A stretch of 64,000 nucleotides of DNA from a phage. The notes under the pieces were generated by a model that saw nothing but the letters and a program-made list of their open reading frames with translations, did not search any database and had not been told where the DNA came from. Position numbers and translations under genes: made by a program. Every line of letters starts with the position of its first letter. Position 1 is the first letter of the stretch. This document shows, piece after piece, positions 392 to 8,551 of the stretch. The DNA lies in the sequence record PZ452610.1. One strand, written 5' to 3'.

Positions 392-1348
392 TTATTTGAA
401 AGGTTTTACCATATGAAAATTTTGTTTGAAACGCTTGACGTAATCGTCGTGTCCTAAGCTTTGATACATACTTACTACTTTGCCATAGTTCTCCCAGGCA
501 TACTCACGGAACCAGCCTGATGTGATTGAAGTACAGACCTTTTCTAATGCCATCATAAAACTATCACGAGGATGGATTTCAAAGCCATTAGGAATCTGAG
601 AACGTTCTAACGCTAGTACACATGTTTCTTCATATACACCGGCCAATTTGACCATTTCCGGAAGTGATTCAAACTTCTCGCGTGAGGTCATTACTTCAGA
701 ACCGTCTTTCATATAAAACGTATAAGCCGGACGGTCTGTTAGTGCAATGGCTTCATGAATAGTATCATGGTCATATGTATAGATGTCATCTTTAAAGAAC
801 GCACTTTTAGAAGTGTCAAGAACCGGGTGAGCATAGTTCAAGGTTTCTTTCTGGCGTTTCAGCATAATTTCAGTAAGTTCATCGTTAAGTGTAACACCTT
901 TACCACGAAGATACTGAATATGGTTCATAGTCTTTAAAAAGAATGGATTATTTTTCTTGAAACGATGAGACATCTTAATTGCAAGACATATCTCAGGAGT
1001 TGCCCAGTAAAACCCGTTCAAACGGTCTTTAGTCAAATTTTTCTTGGCGTATTTTAAAAGGTCATAAGAAGACGTGAAATCTTCAGGAGTGAGTTCACCG
1101 ACTAATTCACGGACATTAGTGATTGCCGGAACAATATATGCTTCAAAATGAGTTTCGCGTCCATTATGGAAGCATTTGAAAACTTGGACATCAGGGTTAT
1201 CTTGGTGAACATATACACCCATCATTTGATTTTTGAATGCATTCCAAGAACCTTGGTCCGCAATAAAGTCCCAATCACTATTTTTAATAGCGCTAGAATC
1301 AATAAGACCGTGATAGTGAAGTGCACGAGAACCAATAACTAACATCAT
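392..1348 (-). CDS. hypothetical protein, possible nucleotidyltransferase-fold N-terminus
   Basis: 318 aa ORF, ATG ATG start with GAGGAA RBS; N-terminal GS...SDWD arrangement loosely resembles Pol-beta-type NTase motif (weak, from inspection only). Confidence 0.6.
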   Translation of the reverse strand: MMLVIGSRALHYHGLIDSSAIKNSDWDFIADQGSWNAFKNQMMGVYVHQDNPDVQVFKCFHNGRETHFEAYIVPAITNVRELVGELTPEDFTSSYDLLKYAKKNLTKDRLNGFYWATPEICLAIKMSHRFKKNNPFFLKTMNHIQYLRGKGVTLNDELTEIMLKRQKETLNYAHPVLDTSKSAFFKDDIYTYDHDTIHEAIALTDRPAYTFYMKDGSEVMTSREKFESLPEMVKLAGVYEETCVLALERSQIPNGFEIHPRDSFMMALEKVCTSITSGWFREYAWENYGKVVSMYQSLGHDDYVKRFKQNFHMVKPFK

Positions 1349-1376
1349 AATATTTTCCTCGGATTAATTCATTAAC

Positions 1377-1616
1377 TTAAATTTCACGACATGCGATATT
1401 ATATTCATCCCAGAGGTCATCATGTGAAGCCTCTACCAATGGAACGATTGTACCGTTTATGTCTTCATTATAAGGGCAAATTGTACAGTGCGCATCTTCG
1501 AATCGGATGCCTTTGTGTTCAGATTTTTTATAACGCATATCGAATATCTTTGCAAACTTTTCACGAGTAATGGTTTTACCAACCACTTTGGTTCCGATAC
1601 TTTCGTAATAAATCAT
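1377..1616 (-). CDS. hypothetical protein
   Basis: 79 aa ORF immediately downstream of early promoter cassette 1636..1674; Cys-containing (CTICPY). Confidence 0.5.
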   Translation of the reverse strand: MIYYESIGTKVVGKTITREKFAKIFDMRYKKSEHKGIRFEDAHCTICPYNEDINGTIVPLVEASHDDLWDEYNIACREI

Positions 1617-1635: not shown

Positions 1636-1674
1636 GATAGGACTACTATAACATAGCCCTATCTTGTTGTAAAC
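1636..1674 (-). promoter_or_regulatory. early-type promoter with palindromic stem-loop (PeSL-like)
   Basis: gataggactactataacatagccctatc palindrome plus gtaaac (-35 GTTTAC on minus). Confidence 0.5.
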
Positions 1675-1678
1675 TGTT

Positions 1679-1876
1679 TTAGCAAGAATAACTAGATGAT
1701 ACCCAGCCTTGAACAGTGATACTATTGTGGGATAATGAGATCGCGTCCTGGAGATTCAGACCTGCGTTATCTTCAATCCATAATGTAACTTCTTCGCGTT
1801 CTTCTGTTGCAATTTGGAACAGGTTTTCCAGAGCAGCTACTGCCGTACGTACAGCACAATCTAATTCGCGAGACAT
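1679..1876 (-). CDS. small protein with conserved C-terminal GWVSSSYSC tail (family member 3)
   Basis: 65 aa; ATG at 1876 preceded by TAAGGAA; C-terminus shared with the two upstream ORFs. Confidence 0.6.
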   Translation of the reverse strand: MSRELDCAVRTAVAALENLFQIATEEREEVTLWIEDNAGLNLQDAISLSHNSITVQGWVSSSYSC

Positions 1877-4483: not shown

Positions 4484-4711
4484 TTATTTTTTAATCAAAT
4501 TGACATAAAACTTGGCGTCTTCGGGGTGCATGCCTTCGCAGTATTCTTCAACCATGAACTTCTTAACAGCTTCATAAGGACCACTCAGATTAAGCTCAGT
4601 TGTCCAGAACTTGGAATCTTGTACTGAATCGATACGAACTTCAGGGTGACGGTTGCGAATAACTTCTTCTGTGTATTCATAATCAACGACATCAATACTA
4701 ACTGTAGCCAT
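4484..4711 (-). CDS. hypothetical protein
   Basis: 75 aa, ATG with GAGGAG RBS, promoter-like element 4736..4770 upstream. Confidence 0.55.
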   Translation of the reverse strand: MATVSIDVVDYEYTEEVIRNRHPEVRIDSVQDSKFWTTELNLSGPYEAVKKFMVEEYCEGMHPEDAKFYVNLIKK

Positions 4712-4735
4712 TTTGTTTCTCCTCTCGATTTAATG

Positions 4736-4770
4736 TGATTACTATAACATAAACTTACTTAGATGTAAAT
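4736..4770 (-). promoter_or_regulatory. early-type promoter
   Basis: minus-sense ATTTAC ... TATAGT upstream of ORF 4484..4711. Confidence 0.4.
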
Positions 4771-4923
4771 TATTTCAACGTCACCTTTAGCTGCTTTATA
4801 ACCTTCAGCCCAAGATACAACAGAGTTTTTATCTGAGGATTCAAATTCAGGCATTGGACTTTCACCAATATTCACACAGTATGTTTCTTCATTTTCATCG
4901 AACCAAATAATTAAAGTAGTCAT
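4759..4923 (-). CDS. hypothetical 54-aa protein
   Basis: ATG at 4923 (MTTLIIWFDENEETYC...) with AGGAG RBS inside the 47-bp cassette; below track length cutoff. Confidence 0.45.
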   Translation of the reverse strand: MTTLIIWFDENEETYCVNIGESPMPEFESSDKNSVVSWAEGYKAAKGDVEIIYI

Positions 4924-4963
4924 TTTGTTTACTCCTCTGTAGTTGATAAGTCTATAGTATCAC
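4917..4963 (-). repeat. 47-bp promoter/RBS/start cassette, identical copy at 41349..41395
   Basis: tagtcattttgtttactcctctgtagttgataagtctatagtatcac identical at both loci by direct comparison. Confidence 0.85.
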
Positions 4964-4991
4964 CATCCTTGGTGCTTGTACATCATTATTT

Positions 4992-5297
4992 TTAATTTTT
5001 CCAACTTAACAACTTGTAGTGTCCTTCATTCGTACGAGGTTTATCCCAAGAAATACTAATATATGATTCGCTATCAATAGAAGTCGCCGGGTTTTTCTCT
5101 ACCGTAAGACCTTCACTTTCCAGCCATTCAATAGTATTTGCGCATAAATCTGAAGAACACCTCATCGGAAACTGGCAAGATTTTTCACCTTTAGATGCTG
5201 CATCGTACATCTTTTCTAAAATACGCTTTTGCACGTTTTTAAAAATAGTTTCAGCAGATTCTTCAGATTTTTTATTCAGTTCAGTGTAAAGACTCAT
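4992..5297 (-). CDS. hypothetical protein
   Basis: 101 aa ORF, ATG at 5297 with GAGGAAAA RBS and cassette 5316..5354 upstream. Confidence 0.55.
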   Translation of the reverse strand: MSLYTELNKKSEESAETIFKNVQKRILEKMYDAASKGEKSCQFPMRCSSDLCANTIEWLESEGLTVEKNPATSIDSESYISISWDKPRTNEGHYKLLSWKN

Positions 5298-5315
5298 AAC
5301 ATTTTCCTCTATGGT

Positions 5316-5354
5316 TGATAAGTCTATAGTATCATGTCCTTAGAAGAAGTAAAC
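5316..5354 (-). promoter_or_regulatory. early-type promoter cassette
   Basis: ttgataagtctatagtatca shared 20-mer with cassettes at 4943 and 41376; gtaaac -35 on minus. Confidence 0.45.
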
Positions 5355-5390
5355 ATCTTTATGAAATATTTTTATGCCCTAGATACCAAA

Positions 5391-5414
5391 AGGCCCCAAC
5401 CATAAGGAAGGGGC
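5391..5414 (-). terminator. rho-independent terminator
   Basis: GGCCCC...GGGGC hairpin; minus strand followed by T-run (plus aaaa 5387..5390). Confidence 0.55.
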
Positions 5415-5420
5415 ATTCTA

Positions 5421-5885
5421 TTATTTAATTTGTTTAGCAGACCAGATACGGTCTTTAATAAGTTTTTGGATATCTTCAACATACTCAAGGCTATGAGCGT
5501 GAGGATTATCTTTGAAGCTATGTGCTCGTGCCAGTTTCTGGCCTTCTGTTTTGATTACTAAAAGCTCTTTAAGAATTGCTTCATACTTAGAAATAATTCC
5601 TTTGGCGATATTTTTTTCTTGAGCTGCTTTAGGGTCTGTTTTTGGCGCAGGTGCTTTACCTGTAGCTTTCTGGAACAATTCACCTGATGCAGCTAGGCTT
5701 TTAAAAACTCGGCTAACAGTATTAGCATTAGTAAAACCTTCGGCTTTAAAATCTCTAATAAAACGGAAACGTTCTTCATCAGAGGCGTCTTTGTAAGAAT
5801 ATTTACCTGCTTGAATTGCTGCAATCGCAGCGGCTTTTACATCTGAACTAGATTGTTCAGTCAAAAATTCAGCGTATGATTTCAT
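5421..5885 (-). CDS. putative capsid-packaged internal protein (CTS-like N-terminus)
   Basis: N-terminus MKSYAEFLTE resembles T4 internal-protein capsid targeting sequence MKTYQEFIAE with LxE cleavage site; basic 154 aa. Confidence 0.55.
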   Translation of the reverse strand: MKSYAEFLTEQSSSDVKAAAIAAIQAGKYSYKDASDEERFRFIRDFKAEGFTNANTVSRVFKSLAASGELFQKATGKAPAPKTDPKAAQEKNIAKGIISKYEAILKELLVIKTEGQKLARAHSFKDNPHAHSLEYVEDIQKLIKDRIWSAKQIK

Positions 5886-5930
5886 GTTGCTTTTCCTAAG
5901 TTAATTAACTTATCTATTTATTATTATGCC

Positions 5931-5957
5931 AAAAAGCCCCGACCTTTCGGAAGGGGC
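5931..5957 (-). terminator. rho-independent terminator
   Basis: GCCCC-gacctttcggaa-GGGGC hairpin; TTTTT on minus strand. Confidence 0.6.
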
Positions 5958-6269
5958 TAAGCCTTGCGGCAACCTTGTCGGGGTTCCACCTGCTAAGGCA
6001 AGTGTTTGTACGAAACGCCGGGATTCGAACCCGGTTATTAAGCAGTTGACGCTACTCAATATTTTTAAAAGGCCATATCTCGACCATATCCGAACGTTCC
6101 GTCAAAAACGCTACTCGGCTTACGGCAAAGATATTTCCTCGAATCGATAATTCTGTGCGCCGTTTCTGCTGTGATGTAAGGGGATATTAACAAATCGTAA
6201 AGATTTATTAAGACCAGTCCTTACTCAGGGAACATCAGTCCGACGACTTGCCGGTAGCGACCCGGCTTC
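5958..6269 (-). ncRNA. non-coding structured region with tRNA-like T-arm hairpin (possible small stable RNA or tRNA remnant)
   Basis: No credible ORF; minus-sense CCGGG-TTCGAAT-CCCGG canonical T-arm at 6016..6032 but no canonical cloverleaf; bounded by terminator. Confidence 0.3.
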
Positions 6270-6614
6270 TTATTTTGACATATCATCAATTTGCTCTCGA
6301 CGCCGACGCCATAGATTAATCGCTTCATTAACACATTCGGCGTTTGGTATATGACGGCAATAATATAATGATTCGCGTTTCTGGAACCGATGTTGCAATG
6401 GAATTTCGTTTAAAAGGTCTTTACGGTCAAAGTATTCAAAACCGGTTAACCCAGAACGGTTTTTAAGAAACTTCCAATGTCCGAATTAATTTTGAAAATA
6501 AACATAATCAGCATGTTGATATAACGAATTAATCAACCGGTCGGAAATAACTGTTTCACGTTCGTTAAAATAAAACGTTAAATCATGAACTACCAGATAA
6601 ACATTGCCTTTCAT
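6270..6614 (-). pseudogene. ORF interrupted by in-frame TAA (41 codons, stop at 6488..6486, then 72 sense codons)
   Basis: Same frame read through by eye: MKGNVYLVVHDLTF...YFQN*FGHWKFLKNRSG...DDMSK; second part has no ATG start. Confidence 0.45.
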
Positions 6615-6632
6615 ATTTTCCTCACTTAAAGT

Positions 6633-6709
<77 letters not shown>

Positions 6710-6712
6710 GAT

Positions 6713-6789
6713 TGGTGACCCAGACCAGATTCGAACTGGTAACCTTTCCCTTATGAGGGGACTGCTGCTAACCATTGAGCTACAGGGCC
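6713..6789 (-). tRNA. tRNA with CAU anticodon (Met or Ile-type)
   Basis: Canonical T-arm ACCAG-TTCGAAT-CTGGT, anticodon loop CUCAUAA, encoded CCA; acceptor and D stems have mismatches. Confidence 0.5.
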
Positions 6790-6794
6790 TAAAT

Positions 6795-6850
6795 AACTTT
6801 CTATTATGAAAGGCACTTTAGAGCACCTTTGGTAATAGAGGGTATGAATT
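6795..6850 (-). promoter_or_regulatory. sigma70-like promoter upstream of tRNA pair
   Basis: minus-sense TTACCA ... 17 nt ... CATAAT ending ~14 nt before tRNA 5' end. Confidence 0.3.
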
Positions 6851-6868
6851 AATAATAACACATAATTT

Positions 6869-7384
6869 TTAAAGCAAATCAATCATTTTAACAGTCGGCA
6901 AAACGATTTCTTCTTCAATATAAGCAAATTCAACACATTCAACTACACGCAAGAAATCATAATCATAATATTCAGAAGCATGGCCAAGAATATCAATGAG
7001 ACCTTCTGATACTAAATATCCGTTCTCACGGAACAGGTCAAATACACGTGATTCGTCTTCTTCAGATTTATTACCAAGGTCAACTTCAATATCAAAGACC
7101 TTTTTAATGAATTCTGGATAAAGATGGTCTGAGAACAGTCCTTCAACCAGATATTCGTAGATAATAAGCGAGCAATCACTGAATGGTGTATTACCACAGT
7201 AACGTTCAGCTTTAGTGCTAGAATGACTACTCTTAAATTTCTTCAAGAGATATTTAAACTGTTGGAGCTCATGCTCTTCTACACCAAATAATGTTTTGGT
7301 TTTATAGCTGTCGCCGTCATTTTCCGAAGTAGTGACATCAATTACGTAACCCTTAGGAATTGTACTACCTAAACAAATATTCAT
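6869..7384 (-). CDS. hypothetical protein
   Basis: 171 aa, ATG start; last gene of a 4-gene coupled operon. Confidence 0.55.
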   Translation of the reverse strand: MNICLGSTIPKGYVIDVTTSENDGDSYKTKTLFGVEEHELQQFKYLLKKFKSSHSSTKAERYCGNTPFSDCSLIIYEYLVEGLFSDHLYPEFIKKVFDIEVDLGNKSEEDESRVFDLFRENGYLVSEGLIDILGHASEYYDYDFLRVVECVEFAYIEEEIVLPTVKMIDLL

Positions 7385-7388
7385 TTAC

Positions 7389-7679
7389 TCACCGTACCAT
7401 ATTAATGTAGTTATATTCAATGCAACGTAATTTCAAAGGGTTCTTGAAAATATCATATTCAAGAGGGCCTGATTCAGTTTCAATAAAGAAATCAAAATTA
7501 ACTGTGTTAAATTTATTGTCTTCACAGAGTAATTTAACCTGTGAAGATGAACGGTCGATATAAACCTTTTCAACCTCAAAGTTAGTCAGAATACCGTAGT
7601 CATCGACTAGTGCTTTAGCTGCACGTTGGTCGCTTTCATATCCATTCTCAACGGATTTTACCTTAGCATAAAGAATCAT
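7389..7679 (-). CDS. hypothetical protein
   Basis: 96 aa; ATG overlaps stop of upstream ORF (ATGA). Confidence 0.55.
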   Translation of the reverse strand: MILYAKVKSVENGYESDQRAAKALVDDYGILTNFEVEKVYIDRSSSQVKLLCEDNKFNTVNFDFFIETESGPLEYDIFKNPLKLRCIEYNYINMVR

Positions 7680-8038
7680 GAATGTTCCACCACTTCAAAG
7701 GTATGAGCATCAACAATATGGTACCAGTCAAAATTTTCTTCCGCGTTTTTATAAATTTCGCGAAGAGCCTCAACAGTTTTTCCTGTAGCAACAAGGTCGT
7801 CAATACCGCCAAGAGGATAACAGTCGTAACCGGCAAACAGAATGAAATTAATAGTTTCTGTAGGGGCCGGATGCAGTGTACCATTGTCATCGACTACTTC
7901 AAAGAACATATAACCAGGCGATTTAGATTTAATCCAAGCCCATGCTTGAGCTGCTGAATCAAATGGTCTGCGTATCAAACGACAATCAGGGTCTTTAGAA
8001 GGATTTGCTTCAAAATCCGCATATACGTGATATTTCAT
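7676..8038 (-). CDS. hypothetical protein
   Basis: Track start is TTG at 8071; preferred ATG 8038 (MKYHVYADF...) with AAGGTGAG RBS right after upstream stop. Confidence 0.55.
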   Translation of the reverse strand: MKYHVYADFEANPSKDPDCRLIRRPFDSAAQAWAWIKSKSPGYMFFEVVDDNGTLHPAPTETINFILFAGYDCYPLGGIDDLVATGKTVEALREIYKNAEENFDWYHIVDAHTFEVVEHS

Positions 8039-8039
8039 T

Positions 8040-8225
8040 TTACTCACCTTTTGCAATTTTATCCATAACAATAGCGATTAAACCGATTAGAAATGCTACT
8101 ACCAATGAGATAGAATTTTCAGTTGTTGTCAGTAGTCCGCAAATGAATCCTACAAACATCGAAAAACTAAAAGCCATTGAAGCAATTACTACAGCAACAT
8201 TACGAATCAGTTCAGCGCGTTTCAT
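8040..8225 (-). CDS. small membrane protein
   Basis: 61 aa, two hydrophobic segments; promoter cassette 8249..8285 upstream. Confidence 0.5.
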   Translation of the reverse strand: MKRAELIRNVAVVIASMAFSFSMFVGFICGLLTTTENSISLVVAFLIGLIAIVMDKIAKGE

Positions 8226-8248
8226 TTTATTATCCTCTCATGTTTTGA

Positions 8249-8285
8249 TAGGACTACTATAACATAGTCCTATCATCATGTAAAC
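8249..8285 (-). promoter_or_regulatory. early-type promoter with palindromic stem-loop (PeSL-like)
   Basis: gataggactactataacatagtcctatc perfect palindrome; minus GTTTAC -35 and TATAGT -10 with 18-nt spacer. Confidence 0.55.
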
Positions 8286-8287
8286 TA

Positions 8288-8551
8288 TTAAATACCAGCT
8301 TCGCGTTTAACATAATCGACGTAAGCTTGGATAGCTTTCTTGCTGGTAATTTTTACCTGGCCACGACCATTGCCTTCTTTAGAGTTTTTCTTAACAACTA
8401 CATTACCATCTTTAACACCCCATACATGGACGTAAGTACCGATGTTTCGGTCGTAGAACATTGCATGGTCATTGTTGTAAGAGAATGATTCATAGTTCTC
8501 TGTCAAAGCAAAAGATTCGGATTCTGCGATAAATTCTTTATACGTTTTCAT
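8288..8551 (-). CDS. internal protein (capsid targeting sequence MKTYKEFIAE)
   Basis: N-terminus matches T4 IP capsid-targeting sequence with LxE/IAE cleavage context; 87 aa. Confidence 0.7.
   Translation of the reverse strand: MKTYKEFIAESESFALTENYESFSYNNDHAMFYDRNIGTYVHVWGVKDGNVVVKKNSKEGNGRGQVKITSKKAIQAYVDYVKREAGI

What the first reader, a model, noticed from the sequence alone, without database searches (positions are those of the whole stretch)
6270..6614. ORF next to the tRNA genes is interrupted by a single in-frame TAA
Reading the minus strand from ATG 6614, 41 sense codons are followed by TAA (6488..6486) and then 72 further sense codons in the same frame up to TAA at 6272..6270. The downstream part has no ATG of its own. 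This is either a recently inactivated gene, or a gene that needs ochre read-through; it sits immediately 3' of two tRNA genes in the same transcription unit.
Basis: seen in the sequence. Interest (0 to 1): 0.65.

Follow-up and report, generated by a model that had tools for sequence, protein, structure and literature searches.

The report
Strain-specific nonsense mutation in phage gene
A small, conserved but uncharacterised T-even phage gene just downstream of the tRNA genes carries one G-to-T change that turns a glutamate codon into a stop in this one isolate, which is an ordinary knockout (or base-call error) and not a gene built for stop-codon read-through.

Summary
On the minus strand, ATG 6614 opens a 115-codon frame with an internal TAA at 6488..6486 and a terminal TAA at 6272..6270. 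The codon counts are 42 + stop + 71, not 41 + 72.

The window is E. coli O157 typing phage 3 (KP869101, Mosigvirus). The frame is this phage's copy of an uncharacterised T-even accessory gene (RB69ORF150c, phrog_3355, 114-116 aa). That gene always starts 18 nt after tRNA-Arg(UCU).

- All 19 other copies read at DNA level (12 Mosigvirus, 6 T2-like, one Logan contig) have GAA (Glu43) at this codon. Seventeen of them are intact.
- Both halves are under strong purifying selection (dN/dS 0.04-0.21).
- The TAA allele occurs only in this record and its RefSeq copy.
- The whole genome encodes two tRNAs (CAU, UCU), so there is no ochre suppressor.
- The stop is UAA followed by U, a strong terminator context.
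- T4 lacks the gene, and other isolates carry independent frameshifts in it, so it is dispensable.

Verdict: a young GAA-to-TAA nonsense allele giving a 42-aa stub, or less likely a consensus base error. It is not programmed read-through. The finding is ordinary and of low interest.

The parts
6270..6614 (-). Interrupted copy of the RB69ORF150c / phrog_3355 gene (115 codons including both stops). Intact orthologs encode 114-116 aa.
6486..6488 (-). Premature ochre codon TAA (codon 43), followed by T. All 19 other copies read have GAA (Glu) here, so this is a single G-to-T transversion. It is KP869101 position 77254..77256.
6486..6614 (-). 42-aa stub plus stop. This is the only part expected to be translated. 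GenBank annotates it as ECTP3_00263 / AKE45141.1, hypothetical protein.
6273..6485 (-). 71 in-frame codons left untranslated by the stop. They contain no frameshift or second stop, and they hold 12 of the 16 residues invariant across the wider family.
6620..6623 (-). Shine-Dalgarno GAGG, 5 nt upstream of ATG 6614. It is conserved in T2 (spacer ATTATAAGTGAGGAAAAT).
6633..6709 (-). tRNA-Arg (anticodon UCU), ending 18 nt before the ORF start. It is not a suppressor. It is of the T2 type (62/77 identical to T2, 44/77 to T4).
6713..6789 (-). tRNA called Met (anticodon CAU). It is 73/74 identical to the T4 tRNA-Ile gene. It is not a suppressor.
6155..6273 (-). Homolog of the T4 stable RNA rnaD (species 2 RNA), 88% identical. 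The ORF's terminal TAA occupies its nucleotides 2-4.
6009..6147 (-). Homolog of the T4 stable RNA rnaC (species 1 RNA), 98.6% identical.
5937..5952 (-). Terminator-like hairpin followed by a T-run, the likely end of the tRNA / ORF / rnaD / rnaC unit.

Best explanation
This is the typing phage 3 allele of a conserved, non-essential T-even accessory gene of unknown function (RB69ORF150c / phrog_3355). One G-to-T transversion has changed Glu43 (GAA) to ochre (TAA). Ribosomes start at the strong GAGG-N5-ATG site and terminate efficiently at UAA-U. They release a 42-residue fragment that lacks strand 4, all C-terminal helices and most invariant residues, so the gene is functionally knocked out. The mutation is young, because nothing else in the frame has decayed. 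It is tolerated because the gene is dispensable. The identity of the mutation, its uniqueness and the absence of a suppressor are shown here. Loss of function, and the origin of the mutation during decades of laboratory propagation of the typing stock, are inferred.
For: - The window is 100% identical to KP869101.
- All 19 other copies read at DNA level have GAA at codon 43: 12 Mosigvirus (11 in the codon alignment plus vB_Eco_F31), 6 Tequatrovirus including T2, and one Logan contig. Seventeen are intact at 114-116 aa.
- vB_Eco_F31 shares the window's local context (differing at one other base) and has GAA.
- A 40-nt megablast, which requires the T, hits only KP869101 and its RefSeq copy among 50,697 phage records, 415 of which carry the gene.
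- There is no TAA allele in IMG/VR. The 11 pattern hits in the metagenome and genome collections show no homology beyond the pattern.
- The 42-aa stub exists only in this record. All other listed members of its 90% cluster are 114 aa.
- dN/dS is 0.08-0.17 for codons 1-42 and 0.04-0.21 for codons 44-end, so the whole frame is a real protein gene.
- The window differs uniquely from the 11 aligned Mosigvirus copies at only 4 nucleotides. The two amino-acid changes downstream (S58G, P113S) are states seen in other copies: G58 in intact orthologs, and S113 in JK38 and in the frameshifted Logan copy.
- The whole genome has only tRNA(CAU) and tRNA-Arg(UCU).
- +4U strengthens termination in E. coli (PMC5289835).
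- Dispensability: T4 has tRNA-Arg followed directly by rnaD, with no ORF. Independent frameshifted alleles occur in vB_Eco_F31 and in a Logan contig (A5 to A4) and in a T2-like contig.
- Among the APCEc01 ORFs syntenic to the 64-kb window, this is the only annotated gene with an in-frame stop in the window.
- The record was assembled from deep Illumina MiSeq data (PMC4429339).
Against: - No reads were available, so a consensus base error cannot be excluded.
- The nearest copy of the gene is only 95.7% identical, so the age of the mutation cannot be bracketed by a sister isolate.
- Only 19 of about 415 database copies were read base by base.
- Nothing shows experimentally that the stub is inactive or that no read-through product forms.
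Confidence: 0.85

Rival explanations
1. Sequencing or assembly artefact: the phage really has GAA, and the T in the deposited consensus is an error or a minority variant that was fixed by the assembler.
For: The allele is seen in one deposited assembly only. It is a single-base difference from an otherwise unblemished frame. No independent assembly of the same stock was found: the 58-aa alternative call is not on record in Logan or elsewhere.
Against: The data were Illumina MiSeq 150-bp paired-end at high depth, assembled de novo with Velvet (PMC4429339). Substitution errors in such a consensus are rare. The site is not in a homopolymer-indel context. No other annotated gene in the 64-kb window shows an in-frame stop relative to APCEc01, so the record is not generally error-ridden.
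Confidence: 0.09
2. Functional ochre read-through: the full-length protein is still made, either through a suppressor tRNA or through leaky termination, so the TAA lowers the dose of the gene rather than killing it.
For: The frame downstream is perfectly open and undamaged. The gene sits beside tRNA genes, and T4 tRNA genes are known to mutate to suppressors (own knowledge of the T4 psu mutants).
Against: The TAA is absent from every ortholog, so no recoding signal has been selected. The whole genome holds only two tRNAs, with anticodons CAU and UCU. UAA with +4U is a strong bacterial termination context (PMC5289835). A gene-60-style hop from AAU would land on the overlapping AAU 4 nt on and leave the frame (sequence).
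Confidence: 0.03
3. The 42-aa product is the normal gene in this lineage, and the 71 codons after it are non-coding spacer or RNA.
For: GenBank annotates only the 42-aa CDS.
Against: Orthologs encode one 114-116-aa protein. Purifying selection is as strong downstream of codon 43 (dN/dS 0.04-0.21) as upstream. Twelve of the 16 family-invariant residues lie downstream. The AlphaFold model places residues 1-42 as part of a single sheet-plus-helices domain.
Confidence: 0.01

Closest known systems
RB69ORF150c / phrog_3355 family of uncharacterised Tevenvirinae proteins (e.g. APCEc01_156, ST0 gp236, T2_136)
   Same: The read-through translation is 93-94% identical over its full length. It hits the profile at E = 2.6e-50. 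The position is the same: 18 nt after tRNA-Arg(UCU) and directly before rnaD.
   Different: Codon 43 is TAA instead of GAA, so only a 42-aa stub can be made.
Other disrupted alleles of the same gene: vB_Eco_F31 (WBF80812.1, 55 aa), the Logan SRR23364229 contig (72-aa call), and the T2-like P0011
   Same: These are independent disruptions of the same accessory gene in otherwise complete phage genomes or contigs.
   Different: Those sequences have -1 frameshifts (A5 to A4 run, or after Gly45), not a nonsense substitution. Some of them may be homopolymer sequencing errors.
Classical T4 amber/ochre mutants and phage-encoded suppressor tRNAs (T4 psu mutants); own knowledge
   Same: A nonsense codon in a T-even gene, located next to the phage tRNA cluster.
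   Different: Here the gene is non-essential, and both tRNAs keep non-suppressor anticodons. There is no evidence of suppression.
Programmed recoding in phages: Qbeta A1 read-through of UGA, and T4 gene 60 bypass; own knowledge
   Same: An in-frame stop inside a phage coding frame with an open frame beyond it.
   Different: In those cases the stop and its signals are conserved among relatives. Here the stop is unique to one record, is UAA-U, and no matched take-off and landing codons restore the frame.

Membership tests
RB69ORF150c / phrog_3355 protein family | Full-length sequence match to the family profile | tested here: met
   E = 2.6e-50, residues 1-113 on profile 1-115/117, using the translation with Glu in place of the stop. 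It is 93-94% identical to P0001 and P0002.
RB69ORF150c / phrog_3355 protein family | Conserved position directly after tRNA-Arg(UCU) and before rnaD/rnaC | tested here: met
   The layout is the same in a20, ATK47, JK42, NHEP36, UGJNEcP2, APCEc01, T2, slur03 and PhiZZ6.
RB69ORF150c / phrog_3355 protein family | Uninterrupted ORF of 114-116 codons | tested here: not met
   TAA at codon 43. It is therefore a disrupted allele (pseudogene) of the family, not a functional member.
Nonsense-mutation pseudogene | Orthologs carry a sense codon at the site, and the difference is a single base | tested here: met
   GAA in all 19 other copies read against TAA here.
Nonsense-mutation pseudogene | The region beyond the stop is coding and under constraint in relatives | tested here: met
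   dN/dS is 0.04-0.21 for codons 44-end. Twelve of 16 invariant residues lie downstream.
Nonsense-mutation pseudogene | No full-length product is made | not testable with these tools
   This needs proteomics or a reporter assay in the propagating host.
Programmed stop-codon read-through / suppressor-dependent gene | The stop codon is conserved among orthologs | tested here: not met
   The TAA is found only in KP869101/NC_041863.
Programmed stop-codon read-through / suppressor-dependent gene | A cognate suppressor tRNA is available in the phage | tested here: not met
   ARAGORN over the whole genome finds only the CAU and UCU tRNAs. The host genome was not available.
Programmed stop-codon read-through / suppressor-dependent gene | A leaky stop context | tested here: not met
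   The stop is UAA followed by U. +4U reduces read-through in E. coli (PMC5289835).
Translational bypass (T4 gene 60 type) | Matched take-off and landing codons that restore the ortholog frame | tested here: not met
   The only nearby AAU repeat is 4 nt downstream, which would shift the frame. Orthologs read straight through in frame 0.

The most novel reading that the evidence does not exclude
Loss of this protein could be selected rather than neutral. The gene is found disrupted independently several times: the TP3 nonsense codon, the vB_Eco_F31 and Logan frameshifts, and a T2-like frameshift. T4 lacks it altogether. This could mean that on some hosts (for example the O157 propagating strains) the protein is a liability, perhaps as a trigger of a host defence, and that knockouts are favoured. 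Alternatively, a trace of ochre read-through may provide a deliberately low dose.
Probability: 0.05. Interest if true: 0.4.

Novelty: already known. Interest (0 to 1): 0.1.

Why it matters
It matters little biologically. The finding documents that one accessory gene of the T-even tRNA region is dispensable, at least under stock propagation. It also flags an annotation issue: KP869101 and NC_041863 list a 42-aa 'hypothetical protein' that is really the stub of a 114-aa gene. It may be a useful natural knockout if anyone studies the function of the RB69ORF150c / phrog_3355 family, which always travels with the T2-type tRNA-Arg(UCU).

Tried and rejected
- **Rfam.** A scan of 4500-8500 at E of 1 or less found only the two tRNAs plus antisense chance hits. 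No recoding element or other RNA was found.
- **Remote homologs.** The profile search of 1.84 billion representatives added three distant full-length homologs (P0009, P0012, P0014) and several truncated calls. The 650-aa repeat protein P0010 is a spurious low-complexity match.
- **Independent assembly of the stock.** The 42-aa stub is on record only from the NCBI record. The 58-aa TTG-start version is not on record.
- **TAA pattern scans.** The degenerate TAA pattern gave 4 hits in the metagenome collection and 7 in the genome collection. None shows homology outside the 23-nt pattern, and my estimate is about 4 chance matches per 596 Gb.
- **Gene-60-type bypass and internal re-initiation.** Both were rejected. 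There is no frame-restoring landing codon, and the only internal start-type codon is TTG 6398, which has no Shine-Dalgarno sequence.
- **Systematic stop-codon oddity or a poor-quality record.** This was rejected. The other tblastn hits that contain stops are out-of-frame or antisense ORFs inside longer intact genes, an upstream extension of APCEc01_159, or an unannotated ORF.

Full report
**1. Observation**

Reading the minus strand from ATG 6614 gives MKGNVYLVVHDLTFYFNERETVISDRLINSLYQHADYVYFQN, then TAA (6488..6486). It continues FGHWKFLKNRSGLTGFEYFDRKDLLNEIPLQHRFQKRESLYYCRHIPNAECVNEAINLWRRRREQIDDMSK, then TAA (6272..6270). The codon counts are each off by one: 42 sense codons precede the internal stop and 71 follow it.

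The downstream segment has one in-frame ATG, but only at codon 112. The only other start-type codon is TTG at 6398, and it has no ribosome-binding site. ARAGORN and Rfam confirm two tRNA genes just upstream on the same strand. These are 6789..6713 (anticodon CAT) and 6709..6633 (tRNA-Arg, anticodon TCT). The ORF has a GAGG Shine-Dalgarno sequence 5 nt before the ATG and starts 18 nt after the tRNA-Arg 3' end.

**2. What the sequence is**

The window is 100% identical to Escherichia coli O157 typing phage 3 (KP869101, RefSeq NC_041863), genus Mosigvirus. GenBank annotates only the 42-aa stub (ECTP3_00263, AKE45141.1).

With Glu substituted for the stop, the translation matches PHROG family phrog_3355 (unknown function) from end to end at E = 2.6e-50. 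It is 93-94% identical over 100% of its length to intact 114-aa proteins. ATK47's annotators call the ortholog 'similar to RB69ORF150c'.

A blastn search finds the gene in 415 phage records. About 140 are at 80-100% identity, and every such copy examined was a Mosigvirus. About 275 are at 72-76% identity, and those examined were Tequatrovirus, including T2. In every locus inspected it lies directly after tRNA-Arg(UCU).

**3. The stop codon against orthologs**

I read 19 other copies at DNA level:
- 12 Mosigvirus: a20, ATK47, ST0, ZQ3, JK42, NHEP36, UGJNEcP2, phiC120, APCEc01, two IMG/VR contigs and vB_Eco_F31.
- 6 Tequatrovirus: LF73P3, PYps32T, T2, slur03, PhiZZ6 and DalCa.
- One Logan contig (SRR23364229).

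All 19 have GAA at codon 43. Seventeen are intact ORFs of 114-116 codons. The other two carry a frameshift further downstream. The window differs by a single G-to-T transversion. vB_Eco_F31 has the same flanking 40 nt as the window apart from one other base, and it has GAA.

Several searches looked for the TAA allele elsewhere:
- A 40-nt megablast query centred on the T cannot seed without it. It hits only KP869101 and NC_041863 among 50,697 phage records.
- A degenerate pattern requiring TAA finds nothing in IMG/VR, whereas the GAA version finds two contigs.
- The same TAA pattern gives 4 hits in the metagenome collection and 7 in the genome collection. None shows homology beyond the pattern itself. 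My estimate is about four chance matches per 596 Gb.
- The exact 42-aa product is on record only from this genome. The other listed members of its 90% cluster are all 114 aa.

More distant full-length homologs also have a sense codon at this position (Lys, Ser or Glu).

**4. Is the whole frame a real gene?**

Nei-Gojobori estimates on the codon alignment show strong purifying selection on both sides of codon 43:

| Comparison | Codons 1-42 | Codons 44-end |
|---|---|---|
| Within Mosigvirus | 0.079 | 0.040 |
| Within Tequatrovirus | 0.168 | 0.213 |
| Between genera | 0.084 | 0.114 |

Synonymous divergence reaches 0.3 within genera and 2.2 between genera. Twelve of the 16 residues invariant across the extended family lie downstream of the stop.

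AlphaFold models (pLDDT 72 and 75) show one compact domain. It consists of strands 4-9, 12-17, 37-41 and 47-51, a helix at 25-34 and C-terminal helices up to residue 111. The stub would lack strand 4 and every C-terminal helix.

**5. How recent?**

Against the 11 aligned Mosigvirus copies, the window has only four private nucleotide states in the gene:
- the nonsense change itself;
- one synonymous change (Thr57 ACT to ACC);
- S58G;
- P113S.

Both amino-acid states are seen in other copies. G58 occurs in the Tequatrovirus copies and in P0003 and P0004. S113 occurs in JK38 and in the frameshifted Logan copy. There is no second stop or indel. So there is no sign of decay after inactivation, and the lesion is young. 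The closest copy is only 95.7% identical, so no sister isolate brackets the date.

**6. Read-through?**

I scanned the rest of KP869101 in three further pieces. The complete genome has only the two tRNAs, with anticodons CAU and UCU. The 'tRNA-Met' is 73/74 identical to the T4 tRNA-Ile gene. There is therefore no phage ochre suppressor.

The stop is UAA followed by U. +4U is reported to reduce read-through in E. coli (PMC5289835 abstract). Because the stop is absent from all relatives, no recoding signal can have been selected. A gene-60-style hop from AAU would land on the overlapping AAU 4 nt downstream and leave the frame (sequence).

Read-through at background level cannot be excluded without an experiment. 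Nothing suggests it is needed or programmed.

**7. Dispensability and context**

In T4, tRNA-Arg is followed after one nucleotide by rnaD (species 2 RNA) and then rnaC (species 1 RNA). T4 has no such ORF. In the window, rnaD (6273..6155, 88% identical to T4) and rnaC (6147..6009, 98.6%) follow the ORF. Homology to T4 resumes exactly at the last base of the final Lys codon, so the ORF's terminal TAA sits at nucleotides 2-4 of the rnaD homolog. A terminator-like hairpin lies at 5952..5937. The tRNA-Arg that accompanies the ORF is of the T2 type, not the T4 type (62/77 against 44/77 identities).

Other disrupted alleles exist. vB_Eco_F31 (GenBank, 55-aa call) and the Logan contig (72-aa call) share an A5-to-A4 frameshift. 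A T2-like contig is frameshifted after Gly45. Some of these may be homopolymer sequencing errors. Together with the absence of the gene from T4, they show that the gene can be lost.

**8. Artefact control**

I took the ORFs of APCEc01 (97% identical at the locus examined) across the region syntenic to the 64-kb window and searched them against the window by tblastn. Fourteen APCEc01 ORFs aligned across a stop. Only this one is an annotated gene. Of the others, eleven lie inside longer intact genes in another frame or strand, one is an upstream extension of APCEc01_159, and one is unannotated. So the record is not generally riddled with stops.

The genome came from Illumina MiSeq 150-bp paired-end reads assembled with Velvet (PMC4429339). 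A consensus substitution error is therefore unlikely, but it is not excluded. The reads (PRJNA252693) could not be examined here.

**9. Function**

**10. Verdict**

This is a strain-specific GAA-to-TAA (Glu43 to ochre) nonsense allele of a dispensable T-even accessory gene. It yields a 42-aa stub. Confidence is about 0.85. A base-call artefact has about 0.09, and functional read-through about 0.03. It is an ordinary pseudogenisation event of a well-known kind.

Its only practical value is as an annotation correction and as a natural knockout of an uncharacterised family. The most novel reading not excluded is that repeated loss of this gene is selected on certain hosts. I put its probability at about 0.05.

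Noticed in passing
window 6273..6155 and 6147..6009 (minus strand): These are homologs of the T4 stable RNAs rnaD (88% identical) and rnaC (98.6%). Rfam 15 has no family for them, so the Rfam scan was silent here. rnaC contains a tRNA-like T-arm (GGTTCGAATCCCGG). The ORF's terminal TAA lies at nucleotides 2-4 of the rnaD homolog, so 5' processing of rnaD at the T4 position would cut the mRNA just before its stop codon.
   Followed up: partly
window 5910..6059 and 6065..6193 (minus strand); L002 1515..1661 and 1667..1795: Short ORFs of 49 and 42 aa lie inside rnaC and rnaD. Some GenBank records (e.g. phage a20: a20_250 and a20_251; NHEP36 CDS0264) annotate them as hypothetical proteins. These are probably mis-annotations of the stable-RNA genes.
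   Followed up: no
window 6713..6789 (minus strand): The tRNA called Met (CAT) by ARAGORN and most records is 73/74 identical to the T4 tRNA-Ile gene. It is most likely the AUA-reading tRNA-Ile with a modified CAU anticodon. One relative's record (ChristianSchoenbein) already labels it tRNA-Ile.
   Followed up: partly
window 6633..6709 (minus strand); L014 1407..1482; L019 1674..1748: The tRNA-Arg(UCU) next to the ORF is of the T2 type (62/77 identical) and unlike the T4 tRNA-Arg(UCU) (44/77). The T2-type tRNA-Arg and the RB69ORF150c-like ORF always occur together with an 18-nt spacer, which suggests a two-gene module. T4 has instead segB plus a different tRNA-Arg.
   Followed up: partly
L038 (OP870147.1 vB_Eco_F31) about 646..813; L026 (Logan SRR23364229) 1201..1419: The same gene carries a -1 frameshift in the A5 run (CTTAAAAACCG to CTTAAAACCG) in two other phage assemblies. 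This is either a recurrent slippage hotspot or a recurrent homopolymer sequencing error.
   Followed up: partly
window 4992..5297 (minus strand) against L024 9234..9737: The gene two positions downstream of the RNA cluster is 101 aa in the window and in a20, but a 167-aa CDS occupies that slot in APCEc01. This is a variable accessory slot and was not examined further.
   Followed up: no
KP869101 87637..88481 and 89665..90674 (L020 3896..4740 and 5924..6933): The record annotates four adjacent CDSs as 'endoribonuclease RegB', in two pairs. This looks like a Prokka over-annotation, or split or duplicated genes. It lies outside the window and was not checked.
   Followed up: no
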